Below, one piece after another: positions 14,536 through 17,197 of a DNA stretch of 21,685 bases. Both the position numbers and the translations under genes were made by a program. The notes under the pieces were generated by a model that was not told the DNA's origin, did no database searches, and saw only the letters and a list, made by a program, of their open reading frames with translations. Where the stretch lies: the NCBI GenBank assembly GCA_037431425.1, contig GCA_037431425.1_4129.5; one strand, 5' to 3'. Origin of the DNA: a phage. The stretch's first letter is position 1, and every line of letters begins with the position of its first letter.

Positions 14536-15222
14536 ATGGCTACAATGCTTGATCGATATGGCGTGCCGCTGGCGGGTGGTGGTCGTATCTCTATGAAACA
14601 ACCGAAAGCAAAATATAAATTTCGTGTCATTTTCTTTGGTTTCGGAACTAATGATGATGGTAATATGATTACACTAGACACTAATACAGTAGGGGCAGTA
14701 TCTGTATCACATGAAAACGTTACTGTCCATAGTTACAACAGTTCTGCACATTATAAAGGTAAGTACACATGGGATACCATTGAAATTGCTTTCCGTGATT
14801 CTGTTGGTAACGCTTCAGCAAAAGCATTATATAACCAAATGCGTAAAGAATTTAACTACTACAGCCAAGAATCCCGTATGACTGATTCACAATTTAAATT
14901 CGAAATGTGGATTCAGGAACTGGATGGTTCGAATAGTGAAAATACTTCTAACCTTTTTGAAGGTACGTTGAGTACTTGGGTGTGCCAAGGTTGCTTTATT
15001 GAATCAAGTAACTTTGGTGATTGGGATTATTCATCTAGTGATGCTCAAGTTATTTCAATGACAGTACAACCTGATGGCTGTGCTAAATTGGGTCCAAACG
15101 GTGAAGCATTTGGTGATGAAGTTAGTGGTTTCGGTAATCCTTCTACTGCTACATCTATTTCTGGTGCACAAACCAATATCAGTAGCACTACACTACCTGA
15201 TAGTAATTTCTATGAAAAATAA
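14536..15222 (+). CDS. tail tube protein (gp19 family), paralogue A
   Basis: 228 aa, immediately downstream of the sheath. C-terminal strand GDWDYSSSDAQVISMTV resembles T4 gp19 LDWDSNNEIQTFEVTL. Paralogous to the next ORF (YGVPL..G.R.SM.QPKAKYKFRVI; RDSVGNASAKAL). AGGAG SD. Confidence 0.7.
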   Translation: MATMLDRYGVPLAGGGRISMKQPKAKYKFRVIFFGFGTNDDGNMITLDTNTVGAVSVSHENVTVHSYNSSAHYKGKYTWDTIEIAFRDSVGNASAKALYNQMRKEFNYYSQESRMTDSQFKFEMWIQELDGSNSENTSNLFEGTLSTWVCQGCFIESSNFGDWDYSSSDAQVISMTVQPDGCAKLGPNGEAFGDEVSGFGNPSTATSISGAQTNISSTTLPDSNFYEK

Positions 15223-15241
15223 TTTCATTTAAACTTAATAT

Positions 15242-15270
15242 AGCCTCGAATCATTTCGGGGCTTTTTTTA
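15242..15270 (+). terminator. intrinsic terminator
   Basis: AGCCTCGAA-TCAT-TTCGGGGCT stem (one G-U pair) followed by TTTTTTT. Confidence 0.8.
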
Positions 15271-15314
15271 TGCTAAATAAAGTATAATACCTTAAAAAAT
15301 ATAAAGAGGTTGCT

Positions 15315-16091
15315 ATGGCAAATAACATGATTAATAAATATGGGGTTCCTTTACCATCAGGGCGTAATAGATCTATGCTTCAACCAAAAGCAAAATACAA
15401 GTTTCGTGTTATTGTATATAATTTTGGAACTGAAATAAATGAACGAGATCACATCGCACTAGATGTTGATAAAATTGACAGACCTACTGTTACATTTAGT
15501 ACACATAAACTATATCAATTTACAACCAATACATCATATATTGGAAGTCATGATTGGGAGCCAATTACTTTATCTATACGTGATTCTGTTGGTAACGCAT
15601 CAGCAAAAGCATTATCAAGACAATTACAAAAACAACTAGACTTTCAACGCAGAATAACTCAAAGAAGGAATCATGACTATGGTTCATATAAATTCGGATT
15701 AGTTATACAAATGCTTAGTGGTCGCAATGCTGATGATACCTTGGATAATTTAGGAAGAGATACTTTAGTTGATGCATCTACCGCTGCAACAAATAATTCT
15801 GGTCTTGTCAATGCAGTTGACCAATTTATTGGTGGTTCATCATATAATAGTGCAGGTGTAATGGAATACTTTGTTTTAACTGGATGTGTTATTCAAAACA
15901 TATCATACGATTCTCTGGATTATAGTTCAAGTTCACCAGTTGAAATGGTTGTAACTATAAAACCAGATAATTGTATACAATTTGATAACATTGAAGAAAT
16001 GTATAGTACCAGAATAAATTCACTTTTACCTGAAAATGTCAATCAAGGGTTAGATATCATTGATCGTGTTTTTGGTAATGTTGGATTTTAA
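15315..16091 (+). CDS. tail tube protein (gp19 family), paralogue B
   Basis: 258 aa. Shares the N-terminal NKYGVPLPSGRNRSMLQPKAKYKFRVI and central IRDSVGNASAKAL blocks with paralogue A. AGAGG SD. Confidence 0.7.
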   Translation: MANNMINKYGVPLPSGRNRSMLQPKAKYKFRVIVYNFGTEINERDHIALDVDKIDRPTVTFSTHKLYQFTTNTSYIGSHDWEPITLSIRDSVGNASAKALSRQLQKQLDFQRRITQRRNHDYGSYKFGLVIQMLSGRNADDTLDNLGRDTLVDASTAATNNSGLVNAVDQFIGGSSYNSAGVMEYFVLTGCVIQNISYDSLDYSSSSPVEMVVTIKPDNCIQFDNIEEMYSTRINSLLPENVNQGLDIIDRVFGNVGF

Positions 16092-16102
16092 GGAGATGAT
16101 GG

Positions 16103-17197
16103 ATGAGTGATTTTTTTGATTCATTTGTTAGTACTGGAACTGGTATAGTAGATGGAGTTATTGATAATATAAACATAGTAAATGATCCAGCATTCAAGAA
16201 CTATAATGCGGCCCAGCGTGTTTTTGGAACAGCAGGTGAAATGGGGTTCTCATTTTATAACTTACCAAAATTTAAAAATAGTTTTATAATAGAATTTGTA
16301 TTAACTCCTTTCGCAAAGAACTTTATTAAAACACAATTACCAGATACACATACTGGCTTTGATGTTAATAATGTATCGTGTTTTGTGAAAGATGTGACGT
16401 TACCAAGCTTTTCATTCAATATTGAAACAGTAAATCAATATAACAAAAAGCGATTAGTTACTGGGGATATAGTTTATAAACCAAGTACTGTGGTTTTTTA
16501 TGATACTGTAGATGGGGCTGGATACTTACTACTGGATGCATATAGAAAGTTTTATTATGGGGATTTTTTTGATAAAAATCCACAATCATACAGAAATGAT
16601 GTATTAAGTACACCTGACAACTTTAATGGACTAGGTGGTAACTGGGGTCGTTCTGTTATGAATAATGGTAATTATGATAATCAGTACTTTTTCAAATCCA
16701 TTAATATATATGAGATTGATAATGAGACATATACTGTACATAATATGATAAATGTATTCATTGAAGATGTACAATTGGAAACAAAATCCATGGAAAGTGA
16801 AGCAGAACCTTCTATGATTACATTAACCATGAGATATGAAGCATGTAACAACTTTGGTCCTGATGGGTATTTGAGCATTAGTGTTCCGTCGATGGAGATT
16901 GCTCATTTGATTACGAACACAGAAGGACTTGGTGTTAGTGGGTTTTTTAAATTTTTTGGTGAGTTAGATGATAAAACTGCCGGAATCACAACTGTTGGTA
17001 AAATTATCCGAGCAGGTACGGCAACTAGTGATATAATAAGCAGTGTTGATGATATATTGCGTGGGGATACTACACCTGATACAATTCGAAACATAGGTGC
17101 TGCTGTAACTAGGGGTTCTGATGCGATTGGATTTGGTAGTGTTGTGTCGGATGCAAGTTCTAAATTTGGACTTGGTAATATACTAGGAGATTTCTAA
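16103..17197 (+). CDS. tube-family structural protein (gp19/gp48/gp54-like), Gly/Ser-rich C-terminus
   Basis: 364 aa. Segment FVKDVTLPSFSFNIETVNQYNKKRLVTGD..TVVFYD aligns with T4 gp19 FQCKATALPAGIVEKIPVGFMNRKINVAGD..TVTVMND. AGGAG SD. Confidence 0.5.
   Translation: MSDFFDSFVSTGTGIVDGVIDNINIVNDPAFKNYNAAQRVFGTAGEMGFSFYNLPKFKNSFIIEFVLTPFAKNFIKTQLPDTHTGFDVNNVSCFVKDVTLPSFSFNIETVNQYNKKRLVTGDIVYKPSTVVFYDTVDGAGYLLLDAYRKFYYGDFFDKNPQSYRNDVLSTPDNFNGLGGNWGRSVMNNGNYDNQYFFKSINIYEIDNETYTVHNMINVFIEDVQLETKSMESEAEPSMITLTMRYEACNNFGPDGYLSISVPSMEIAHLITNTEGLGVSGFFKFFGELDDKTAGITTVGKIIRAGTATSDIISSVDDILRGDTTPDTIRNIGAAVTRGSDAIGFGSVVSDASSKFGLGNILGDF

What the first reader, a model, noticed from the sequence alone, without database searches (positions are those of the whole stretch)
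14536..17197. Tandem duplication of the tail tube gene plus a third tube-family protein
Two adjacent genes of 228 and 258 aa share conserved N-terminal and central blocks and a gp19-like C-terminal strand; each has its own SD and the first has its own terminator. A third protein of 364 aa has a gp19-like core plus a Gly/Ser-rich tail. Two major-tube paralogues immediately after the sheath is not the T4 arrangement; one copy could be a tube initiator or terminator, or the tube could be heteromeric.
Basis: partly seen in the sequence, partly recalled or inferred. Interest (0 to 1): 0.5.

Follow-up and report, generated by a model that had tools for sequence, protein, structure and literature searches.

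The report
Three tail-tube-family genes after sheath
Right after its tail-sheath gene, this giant E. coli phage carries three related genes of the tail-tube family; one most likely builds the long inner tube and the other two form special rings at its ends, which is an ordinary design for contractile tails, although who does what has never been tested.

Summary
The window is a RaK2-like jumbo myophage, 99.8% identical to Escherichia phage ph0011. After the sheath gene (11483-14146) come A (14536-15222, 228 aa), B (15315-16091, 258 aa) and C (16103-17197, 364 aa).

Relatives such as PA5oct, Atu_ph07 and a metagenomic phage have only tube, C, then a gp4-like gene. B is therefore a lineage-specific extra copy.

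A is monocistronic: a promoter-like motif lies upstream and a conserved intrinsic terminator downstream. The same terminator position follows the single tube gene of PA5oct. A is also the most conserved of the three.

Best reading: A polymerises into the tube, and B and C are six-copy adaptor rings (initiator or terminator), as gp54, gp48 and gp3 are in T4. Which end each occupies is unresolved.

Public records already label them "tail tube protein x3". Ordinary; low to moderate interest.

The parts
11483..14146 (+). Tail sheath gene (887 aa); context, the gene immediately upstream of the tube cluster
   Evidence: Pfam PF17482 Phage_sheath_1C 1.6e-14. PHROG 10581 'tail sheath' with E=0. The orthologue phAPEC6 gp277 forms 25 hexameric rings (PMC7247149).
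14153..14181 (+). Intrinsic terminator after the sheath gene (9-bp stem plus T run)
   Evidence: Terminator scan. RNA fold -14.9 kcal/mol, z=-4.0. Conserved in 121Q and RaK2.
14494..14501 (+). ATAAATAA motif 42 nt upstream of A; putative late promoter (inferred)
   Evidence: NTAAATAA lies 23-59 nt upstream of the neck, sheath, A and B genes and of two further genes (starts 5814 and 18298), with the variant TTAAATAT before the gp4-like gene. It is conserved upstream of A in 121Q and RaK2. It resembles the T4 late promoter TATAAATA (my own knowledge). Relatives encode a late sigma factor (121Q gp591).
14536..15222 (+). Gene A, 228 aa (25.1 kDa, pI 4.8): proposed major (polymerising) tail tube protein
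   Evidence: - PHROG 4542 'tail tube protein' 1.4e-85; T4 gp19 hits the same PHROG at 5e-10.
- Most conserved of the three genes among relatives.
- Monocistronic, lying between two terminators.
- Detected in virions of RaK2, phAPEC6 and CBB.
15242..15270 (+). Intrinsic terminator after A (stem 15242-15263, T7 run)
   Evidence: -13.7 kcal/mol, z=-4.9. RaK2 keeps a hairpin plus T run with a different stem sequence (-18.8). An equivalent hairpin follows the single tube gene of PA5oct and the A-type gene of Vibrio phage 2.275.O.
15273..15280 (+). CTAAATAA motif 42 nt upstream of B; putative late promoter for the B-C unit (inferred)
   Evidence: GCTAAATAA is invariant in the window, 121Q and RaK2.
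15315..16091 (+). Gene B, 258 aa (29.0 kDa): lineage-specific tube paralogue with an insertion of about 32 aa (about residues 138-181) and its own C-terminal helix; proposed non-polymerising adaptor ring
   Evidence: - 31% identity to A, E=4e-33.
- PHROG 4542 at 7e-78.
- AF2 model pLDDT 69.5, with the core at 80-90.
- Detected in virions of RaK2 and phAPEC6.
- Absent from PA5oct, Atu_ph07 and L069.
16103..17197 (+). Gene C, 364 aa (40.2 kDa): tube-fold core (about 58-272) with a 57-aa N-terminal arm and a 92-aa Gly/Thr/Asp/Ser-rich C-terminal tail; it starts 11 nt after B with no promoter motif of its own; proposed adaptor ring conserved across the clade
   Evidence: - PHROG 13438 at 1.6e-219, PHROG 4542 at 1.2e-6, PHROG 45 at 6e-4.
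- hhalign against the A/B profile: 97.8%, E=8e-13.
- AF2 core pLDDT about 75-90, termini below 50.
- Orthologues: PA5oct gp286 (1e-25) and Atu_ph07 gp126 (4.5e-28).
- Detected in virions of phAPEC6 and CBB.
17262..17681 (+). gp4-like head-completion nuclease gene (139 aa); conserved downstream neighbour of C
   Evidence: PF08722 TnsA-like N 3.4e-17. PHROG 218 'head closure' 5.8e-40. C is followed by a gp4-like gene in 121Q, RaK2, Atu_ph07, L069 and probably the Vibrio phage (its next gene is cut off and unannotated), and with one small gene in between in PA5oct and SCTP-2.

Best explanation
All three genes encode virion proteins with the contractile-tail tube fold (gp19/Hcp type), but they do different jobs.

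**A** is the polymerising major tube protein. About 25 hexameric rings are expected, given the 25 sheath rings seen in phAPEC6. It is expressed as its own monocistronic late unit, closed by a terminator.

**B and C** are made from a separate B-C unit. Each forms one non-polymerising hexameric ring that adapts an end of the tube, the way T4 uses the gp19-like proteins gp54 and gp48 (tube initiators on the hub) and gp3 (tube terminator).

**C** is the ancestral adaptor, found next to the tube gene throughout a very large phage clade. **B** arose by duplication of the tube gene in the RaK2-like lineage.

My preferred placement is hub -> C ring -> B ring -> A tube, a two-ring junction as in T4 and phiKZ. 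I give it only about 40%. B or C acting as a gp3-like cap at the neck end is nearly as likely.

Shown:
- the paralogy of the three genes;
- the tube fold of B and C;
- virion presence in close relatives;
- the transcription signals in the sequence;
- the phyletic pattern.

Inferred:
- copy numbers;
- ring formation;
- the position of each ring;
- promoter function.
For: **Family and fold**
- A and B fall in PHROG 4542 and C in PHROG 13438, both 'tail tube'.
- T4 gp19 hits PHROG 4542 at 5e-10.
- The A/B profile matches the C profile at 97.8%.

**Virion proteins** (published proteomes; PA5oct record notes)
- RaK2: gp042 and gp043.
- phAPEC6: gp275c, gp274c and gp273c.
- CBB: CBB_205 and CBB_207.
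- PA5oct: gp287 and gp286.

**A as the polymer**
- It has a terminator on each side.
- The terminator after A is kept in RaK2 with a different stem. A terminator-like hairpin also follows the single tube gene of PA5oct and the A-type gene of the Vibrio phage.
- A lacks the B-specific insertion of about 32 aa, so its length resembles the single-copy tubes.
- In matched phages A is more conserved than B and C: for example 58% versus 48% versus 55%, and 65% versus 58% versus 61%.
- A is detected in 3 of 3 proteomes and B in 2 of 3.

**B as the added copy**
- PA5oct, Atu_ph07 and metagenomic L069 have sheath ... tube - C, then a gp4-like gene (PA5oct has one small gene in between) and no B.
- The A and B clades are sisters in an NJ tree, with weak support of 65.

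**Precedent**
- T4 gp3 is a gp19-like ring, about 22% identical, that caps the tube (PMC12929629).
- T4 and phiKZ both have two rings between hub and tube (PMC13250141).

**No other candidates found**
- PHROG scans of the unannotated virion proteins in the 121Q baseplate module detected no other tube-family gene.
Against: - No stoichiometry exists. Peptide counts do not separate A from B: phAPEC6 gives 2 versus 3, RaK2 gives 5 versus 3. A's tryptic map limits its coverage (sequence).
- Sequence distance to the single-copy tubes is nearly equal for A and B. The HMM slightly favours A (196 versus 187 bits). hhalign favours B (423 versus 346).
- By position, B rather than A sits where the single tube gene sits, directly before C.
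- In Atu_ph07 and L069 the major tube gene is itself tightly coupled to C (11 and 4 nt). Close B-C spacing therefore says nothing about copy number.
- Structural ranks (gp3 14.8, Pvc5 14.2, gp54 13.8, gp19 13.7) are too close to assign an end.
- The initiator genes of T4 and phiKZ lie in or near baseplate clusters, not beside the tube gene.
- The RaK2 authors proposed other abundant proteins (gp106/gp107) as the tube.
Confidence: 0.55

Rival explanations
1. One adaptor at each end. C (or B) is the baseplate-side tube initiator, and the other is a T4 gp3-like tube terminator. The terminator would sit on the last A ring under the gp15-like tail terminator and stop polymerisation.
For: - The phage has a T4-type neck set: a gp13-like gene at 7565-8371, a gp15-like gene in 121Q (gp579) and a gp4-like gene. 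A gp3-like part is therefore expected.
- The cluster lies among neck and head-completion genes, about 40 kb from the baseplate module in 121Q.
- With three tube-fold proteins and two tube ends, one protein per end is parsimonious.
- gp3 is a gp19 paralogue at about 22% identity, comparable with B versus A at 31%.
Against: - hhalign of the A, B and C families against a gp3 family alignment is not significant.
- PA5oct and Atu_ph07 also have gp15- and gp13-type necks but lack B.
- The T4 paper calls gp3 'special' (PMC12929629). As far as I know, most solved myophages cap the tube with the tail terminator alone.
Confidence: 0.3
2. The tube itself is built from both paralogues (hetero-hexamers, alternating rings or a segmented tube), or B rather than A is the main tube subunit.
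For: - Both A and B are in virions, with similar peptide counts.
- B occupies the ancestral position directly before C, and is as close to single-copy tubes as A is.
- B is strongly conserved: more than 70 clusters at 43-91% identity.
- A and B share a 37-nt tract that is 36/37 identical, encoding the same helix. That would suit a shared partner.
- Heteromeric Hcp rings exist (PDB 9vnd, listed).
Against: - A terminator and a separate promoter-like motif uncouple A from B.
- B carries a family-specific insertion of about 32 aa and a different C-terminal tail.
- B evolves faster than A.
- B was not detected in the CBB proteome although A and C were.
- Relatives build tails with a single tube gene.
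- None of the solved tail tubes that matched the models, and none that I know of, is built from two paralogues.
Confidence: 0.1
3. C (and perhaps B) is not on the tail axis at all. It would be a tube-fold domain reused elsewhere, for example a peripheral baseplate or 'ripcord'-type protein, or an anchor for the tail 'hair' fibres seen in phAPEC6 and CBB.
For: - Some distant C-family members carry C-terminal F5/8 type C carbohydrate-binding domains.
- C has long, poorly modelled N- and C-terminal extensions.
Against: - C is conserved, and usually directly adjacent to the tube gene, in phages with and without tail hairs.
- Its best structural matches are axial ring proteins: gp54, gp3, Hcp and Pvc5.
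- Every contractile tail needs at least one tube-fold initiator, and PHROG scans of the unannotated virion proteins in the 121Q baseplate module found no other candidate.
Confidence: 0.05

Closest known systems
Phage T4 gp19 (tube) with its paralogues gp54 and gp48 (baseplate-tube junction rings) and gp3 (tube terminator)
   Same: - One polymerising tube protein plus several non-polymerising tube-fold rings.
- T4 gp19 matches the A/B PHROG at 5e-10.
- B and C models superpose on gp3, gp54 and gp19.
- T4 genes 48 and 54 abut each other, as B and C do.
- The neck parts gp13, gp15 and gp4 are shared.
   Different: - In T4 the paralogues are scattered. Gene 19 is followed by the portal gene, genes 48 and 54 follow the tape-measure gene, and gene 3 lies elsewhere. 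Here all three sit after the sheath gene.
- There is no significant sequence match of B or C to the gp3, gp54 or gp48 families, so they are probably independent duplications rather than orthologues.
- No Pfam model hits any of the three.
Orthologous clusters in RaK2-like jumbo phages: 121Q gp552-554, PBECO4, phAPEC6 gp275c-273c, RaK2 gp042-044, CBB_205-207
   Same: Same three genes in the same order. DNA identity over the three-gene region is 84-91% in other Asteriusvirus records; for RaK2 only protein A was compared (80.5% amino-acid identity). Several records annotate them 'tail tube protein (x3)'. The products are detected in virions.
   Different: None in kind. The window is simply another member. 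The nearest record, ph0011 (99.8% identical), lists them as hypothetical proteins. No paper I found assigns separate roles to the three. The RaK2 paper could not identify the tube and proposed gp106/gp107 instead.
Tube plus C-type pair in related large phages: PA5oct gp287/gp286, Atu_ph07 gp127/gp126, metagenomic L069
   Same: Sheath, then the tube gene, then a C-type tube-fold protein, followed by a gp4-like gene; other genes separate the sheath from the tube gene in all three, and PA5oct has one small gene before its gp4-like gene. In PA5oct a terminator-like hairpin follows the tube gene.
   Different: They lack the second A-like copy (B). C-type proteins vary in length from 328 to 492 aa and more. 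Salicola phage SCTP-2 has three A/B-type copies plus C.
Extracellular contractile injection systems: Afp1/Pvc1 (tube) with the paralogue Afp5/Pvc5 (first ring on the baseplate)
   Different: These are bacterial particles with no head. There is no detectable sequence relation. Their tube-fold proteins are about 140-150 aa and lack the insertions and tails seen in B and C.
phiKZ gp30 (tube), gp88 (tube initiator) and gp182 (spacer ring)
   Same: A jumbo myophage with two rings between hub and tube. The initiator resembles the tube protein core (PMC13250141).

Membership tests
Contractile-tail tube protein superfamily (T4 gp19 / Hcp / Pvc1 fold) | Beta-sandwich tube fold flanked by an alpha-helix | tested here: met
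- A was not modelled. Its fold is inferred from 31% identity to B.
Contractile-tail tube protein superfamily (T4 gp19 / Hcp / Pvc1 fold) | Detectable sequence homology to a characterised tube protein | tested here: met
   - T4 gp19 hits PHROG 4542 (the A/B family) at 5.3e-10 over its full length.
- A and C hit PHROG 45 (gp19/gp54/gp3) at 2e-4 and 6e-4.
- C versus the A/B profile: 97.8%, E=8e-13.
- Pfam-A has no hit at E<=1.
- PDB sequence searches gave nothing.
Contractile-tail tube protein superfamily (T4 gp19 / Hcp / Pvc1 fold) | Present in the virion | not testable with these tools
   Taken from the literature on orthologues of protein A 73-98% identical:
- phAPEC6: all three proteins.
- RaK2: A and B.
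- CBB: A and C.
Contractile-tail tube protein superfamily (T4 gp19 / Hcp / Pvc1 fold) | Assembles into hexameric rings lining the tail channel | not testable with these tools
   No multimer modelling or map was available. The phAPEC6 tail map is only 25 Å.
Major (polymerising) tail tube protein - role claimed for A | Roughly equimolar with sheath; forms the helical stack | not testable with these tools
   Only indirect support: the monocistronic unit with conserved terminator, the highest conservation and a single-copy-like length.
T4 gp54/gp48-type tube initiator (baseplate-tube junction ring) | Sequence membership of the gp54 or gp48 family | tested here: not met
   - gp48 is PHROG 230 and shows no cross-hit.
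- hhalign of the C family against a gp54 family alignment gives a long in-register alignment (162 columns) but a probability of only 1.2%.
- HMM E-values are 0.04 or worse.
T4 gp54/gp48-type tube initiator (baseplate-tube junction ring) | Gene located in the hub/tape-measure cluster | tested here: not met
   B and C lie between the tube gene and the gp4-like gene. The baseplate module of 121Q is about 40 kb away.
T4 gp54/gp48-type tube initiator (baseplate-tube junction ring) | Ring sits between the gp27-like hub and the first tube ring and nucleates the tube | not testable with these tools
   Needs cryo-EM of the baseplate or genetics.
T4 gp3-type tube terminator | Sequence membership of the gp3 family | tested here: not met
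   gp3 does not hit PHROG 4542 or 13438 at E<0.01. hhalign probabilities are 1.4% or lower.
T4 gp3-type tube terminator | gp19-like fold that caps the tube under gp15 | tested here: inconclusive

The most novel reading that the evidence does not exclude
The inner tube of RaK2-like phages is not a homopolymer. A and B would co-assemble in a fixed pattern (hetero-hexamers, alternating rings or a distinct distal segment). Short gene-conversion tracts would keep their outer helix identical so that both fit the same sheath surface.
Probability: 0.07. Interest if true: 0.7.

Novelty: new member of a known kind. Interest (0 to 1): 0.25.

Why it matters
The practical value is in annotation. In RaK2-like jumbo phages, several of which are studied for therapy, three genes are labelled alike as 'tail tube protein' or 'hypothetical'. 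The first RaK2 paper pointed to different proteins as the tube.

Separating the polymer (A) from the adaptor rings (B and C) gives testable parts for tail-assembly and structural work. The comparison also yields two broader points:
- The C-type protein belongs to a very large family with no Pfam model (about 2,000 clusters at 50% identity), nearly always adjacent to the tube gene and a gp4-like gene in the relatives examined.
- Extra tube copies arose repeatedly in this clade: B here, and three A/B-type copies in SCTP-2.

This illustrates how adaptor rings of contractile tails arise by duplication of the tube gene. None of it overturns current understanding.

Tried and rejected
1. **Pfam-A.** A scan of A, B and C gave no hits even at E<=1.

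2. **PDB by sequence.** Searches with each protein and with the 59-sequence profile gave only chance hits.

3. **hhalign against single T4 sequences.** The family profiles against single gp19, gp48 and gp54 sequences were not significant.

4. **hhalign against T4 family alignments.** I built gp19, gp3, gp54 and gp48 family alignments from IMG/VR and ran hhalign against the A, B, D and C families.
   - The best result was D family versus gp19 at 20% probability.
   - C family versus gp54 reached only 1.2%.
   - This cannot tell which T4 paralogue B or C resembles.

6. **NJ tree of A, B and single-copy tubes rooted on C.** A and B are sisters with support of only 65, so the timing of the duplication is not firmly resolved.

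7. **Search for other tube-family proteins in the 121Q baseplate module.** PHROG scans of ten unannotated virion proteins detected none. Remote folds could still be missed.

8. **Coevolution of the shared helix motif.** Across 18 phages, A and B of the same phage show no excess similarity at the motif (permutation p=0.18). The identical tract in this lineage therefore looks like local gene conversion, not a general rule.

9. **Gene spacing as evidence of stoichiometry.** I rejected the idea that close B-C spacing implies equal copy number, because single-copy tube genes are just as closely coupled to C in Atu_ph07 and L069.

10. **Peptide counts as abundance.** I rejected this because A's sequence yields few tryptic peptides of a size likely to be detected.

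11. **Literature.** Searches found no high-resolution tail structure for any RaK2-like or PA5oct-like phage.
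Full report
**What the window is**

The region 14400-17300 is 99.8% identical to Escherichia phage ph0011. It is 84-91% identical to other Asteriusvirus jumbo myophages (UE-S1, 121Q, PBECO4, phAPEC6, JP4 and others). Related copies occur in RaK2, GAP32, CBB and further RaK2-like phages.

Gene order on the + strand:
- gp13-like neck gene (7565-8371)
- a 664-aa ORF (8398-10392)
- dNMP kinase (10760-11386)
- sheath (11483-14146; PF17482, PHROG 10581)
- A (14536-15222)
- B (15315-16091)
- C (16103-17197)
- gp4-like head-completion nuclease (17262-17681)

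**Checking the observation**

The three ORFs are at the stated coordinates. A and B align at 31% identity with E=4e-33. They share N-terminal, central and C-terminal blocks, and B carries an insertion of about 32 residues.

Each gene has a Shine-Dalgarno site at normal spacing.

A hairpin plus T7 run follows A (15242-15270; -13.7 kcal/mol, z=-4.9). Another follows the sheath gene. The terminator after A is identical in 121Q. In RaK2 it is replaced by a hairpin with a different stem sequence and a T run, which argues that the structure is selected.

C's tail (residues 273-364) is 16% Gly and 10% Ser, and is also rich in Thr, Asp and Ile.

**Family membership**

Pfam-A finds nothing for A, B or C. 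PDB sequence searches also find nothing.

PHROGs place A and B in phrog_4542 (1e-85, 7e-78) and C in phrog_13438 (1.6e-219). C also hits phrog_4542 (1e-6), and both A and C hit phrog_45.

T4 gp19 itself matches phrog_4542 at 5e-10 over its full length. T4 gp19, gp54 and gp3 all belong to phrog_45, and gp48 belongs to phrog_230.

A profile of 59 A, B and related sequences aligns with a profile of 38 C-family sequences at 97.8% probability, E=8e-13, over 169 columns.

**Structure**

- Foldseek ranks the cyanophage A-1(L) tube, PVC, gp3 and the AFP tube together.

All three are therefore tube-fold proteins. A's fold is inferred from its homology to B.

**Virion presence (literature)**

| Phage | A | B | C | Source |
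|---|---|---|---|---|
| phAPEC6 (A 98% identical) | gp275c, 2 peptides | gp274c, 3 peptides | gp273c, 7 peptides | PMC7247149, |
| RaK2 | gp042, 5 peptides | gp043, 3 peptides | gp044, not listed | PMC3622015 supplement, |
| CBB | CBB_205, 6 peptides | CBB_206, not listed | CBB_207, 9 peptides | PMC5259590, |

- The A, B and C assignments for CBB follow from gene order (sheath CBB_204, gp4 CBB_208).
- The PA5oct record flags its tube and C-type proteins as detected by MS.
- Peptide counts cannot give stoichiometry. From A's sequence I estimate that only about a quarter of the protein lies in tryptic peptides of detectable size.

**Comparative genomics**

In PA5oct the order is sheath, homing endonuclease, tube (gp287), a 492-aa protein (gp286), a 151-aa virion protein, then gp4-like. 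In Atu_ph07 the tube gene (gp127) lies a few genes downstream of the sheath and is followed directly by a 328-aa protein (gp126) and gp4-like.

gp286 and gp126 are C orthologues (hhalign E=1e-25 and 4.5e-28).

A metagenomic large phage (L069/L070) has sheath, a 186-aa tube (255 bits to the single-copy family HMM), a 422-aa C-type protein, then a gp4-like gene.

The ancestral unit is therefore tube - C - gp4-like. B is an extra tube copy in the RaK2-like lineage.

Other expansions exist:
- Salicola phage SCTP-2 has three A/B-type genes before its C-type gene.
- Vibrio phage 2.275.O has an A-type gene after the sheath. Two unrelated genes separate it from a short second paralogue that sits directly before C.

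An NJ tree rooted on C places the A and B clades as sisters, with weak support of 65.

The C family is very large. It has 1,976 representatives at 50% identity with E<=1e-3, and 530 with E<=1e-30. Lengths run from about 210 to 1,300 aa. A few members carry C-terminal F5/8 type C domains.

**Which protein is the polymer**

Evidence for A:
- A lies between two terminators.
- A terminator-like hairpin also follows the single tube gene of PA5oct (-18.8 kcal/mol, z=-4.6) and the A-type gene of the Vibrio phage.
- An NTAAATAA motif lies 42 nt upstream of both A and B, and 23-59 nt upstream of other structural genes (TTAAATAT before the gp4-like gene). None precedes C. The motif is conserved in 121Q and RaK2. 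It resembles the T4 late promoter, and relatives encode a late sigma factor.
- The likely transcription units are therefore [sheath], [A], [B-C...].
- A lacks the B-specific insertion.
- A is the most conserved of the three in matched genomes.

Evidence against A:
- A and B are almost equally distant from single-copy tubes.
- B, not A, occupies the position directly before C.

I put A as the polymer at roughly 0.75.

**Roles of B and C**

PHROG scans of the unannotated virion proteins in the 121Q baseplate module detected no other tube-family gene. That module does contain gp5-, gp6-, gp25-, gp15-like and hub genes.

T4 uses gp19-like rings at both ends: gp54 and gp48 on the hub, and gp3 (about 22% identical to gp19) as a cap under gp15. 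phiKZ also has two rings at the junction.

C is universal in the clade, and a tube-fold initiator is, as far as I know, universal in contractile tails. I therefore favour C as the hub-side ring.

B is the closest mimic of A. It could be the second junction ring that templates A, or a gp3-like cap.

Structural ranks and profile comparisons with T4 family alignments do not discriminate. I give the two-ring junction about 0.4 and 'one ring at each end' about 0.3-0.35.

**Comparison with what is known, and novelty**

The design, one polymerising tube protein plus paralogous adaptor rings, is well established in T4, in AFP/PVC-type injection systems and in phiKZ.

The three genes are already labelled 'tail tube protein (x3)' in RefSeq 121Q and PBECO4 and in several recent GenBank records. 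They are 'hypothetical' in ph0011.

I found no paper that separates their roles, and no high-resolution tail structure for this clade. The RaK2 paper could not identify the tube and proposed gp106/gp107.

This is therefore another member of a known kind. The modest added points are that B is a lineage-specific duplication, and that C represents a large family with no Pfam model.

**Side observation**

A and B are 51% identical in aligned nucleotides. Even so, they share a 37-nt tract that is 36/37 identical (14794-14830 versus 15579-15615), encoding RDSVGNASAKAL in both.

Third-base identity at identical residues is 11/12 inside the tract and 30/58 outside it. RaK2 has its own variant of the motif in both paralogues (NDSAKAV shared; the full motifs differ at one residue, V versus I).

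Other lineages do not show this: same-phage identity at the motif is 5-9 of 12, with permutation p=0.18. This looks like short, lineage-specific gene conversion. Its meaning is open.

Noticed in passing
window 14794-14830 vs 15579-15615: A 37-nt tract is 36/37 identical between paralogues A and B, which are otherwise 31% identical in protein and 51% in nucleotides. It encodes the same helix motif, RDSVGNASAKAL, in both. Third-base identity at identical residues is 11/12 inside the tract and 30/58 outside. RaK2 has its own shared variant. This looks like short gene-conversion tracts.
   Followed up: partly
window 5776, 7542, 11424, 14494, 15273, 17223, 18262: The motif NTAAATAA (TTAAATAT at 17223) lies 23-59 nt upstream of the starts of several structural genes: neck, sheath, A, B, gp4-like and others. 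It lies exactly 42 nt upstream of both A and B. It is conserved in 121Q and RaK2. It is probably the late promoter and resembles T4 TATAAATA.
   Followed up: partly
window 8398-10392 (+): A 664-aa ORF with many ~30-aa 'N..RYG'-type repeats (Pfam DUF7487, 5e-40) lies between the neck gene and the dNMP kinase gene. It is absent at this spot in 121Q. RaK2 has it as ORF039, 'possible homing endonuclease'. PA5oct has a different homing endonuclease between its sheath and tube genes. The presence/absence pattern looks like a mobile element.
   Followed up: partly
window 14147-14535: The sheath-A spacer is 389 bp here and in 121Q. It contains small ORFs at 14231-14377 (48 aa) and 14361-14462 (33 aa). 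In RaK2 the spacer is only about 121 bp. phAPEC6 annotates a 41-aa gene there.
   Followed up: no
C family (P0178-P0347; alignment A3): The C-type tube-fold family (conserved NQYN and YYYGDF motifs) has 1,976 representatives at 50% identity (E<=1e-3) and no Pfam model. Lengths run from about 210 to 1,310 aa. Two long members carry F5/8 type C domains, and one also carries a 'non-contractile tail sheath N-terminal' domain.
   Followed up: partly
L009 (Salicola phage SCTP-2) 6001-9525; L010 (Vibrio phage 2.275.O) 5001-10540: SCTP-2 has three A/B-type tube paralogues in a row before its C-type gene. The Vibrio phage keeps a short second paralogue directly before C, although two unrelated genes (one with a pectin-lyase fold) separate it from the A-type gene. 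Tube-gene duplication therefore seems to recur in this clade.
   Followed up: partly
RaK2 gp106/gp107 (not in the window): The RaK2 paper proposed two abundant beta-rich proteins (24.6 and 21.1 kDa; 13 and 11 peptides) as tube candidates. What they are remains unexplained. gp106 would co-migrate with A (25 kDa) on gels.
   Followed up: no
window 271-1230, 1247-1579, 3671-4783: The upstream non-structural genes include a LysM-lysozyme, an HPF/RaiA-type ribosome hibernation factor homologue (PF02482, 2.5e-10) and a CCA-adding/poly(A) polymerase-family enzyme.
   Followed up: no
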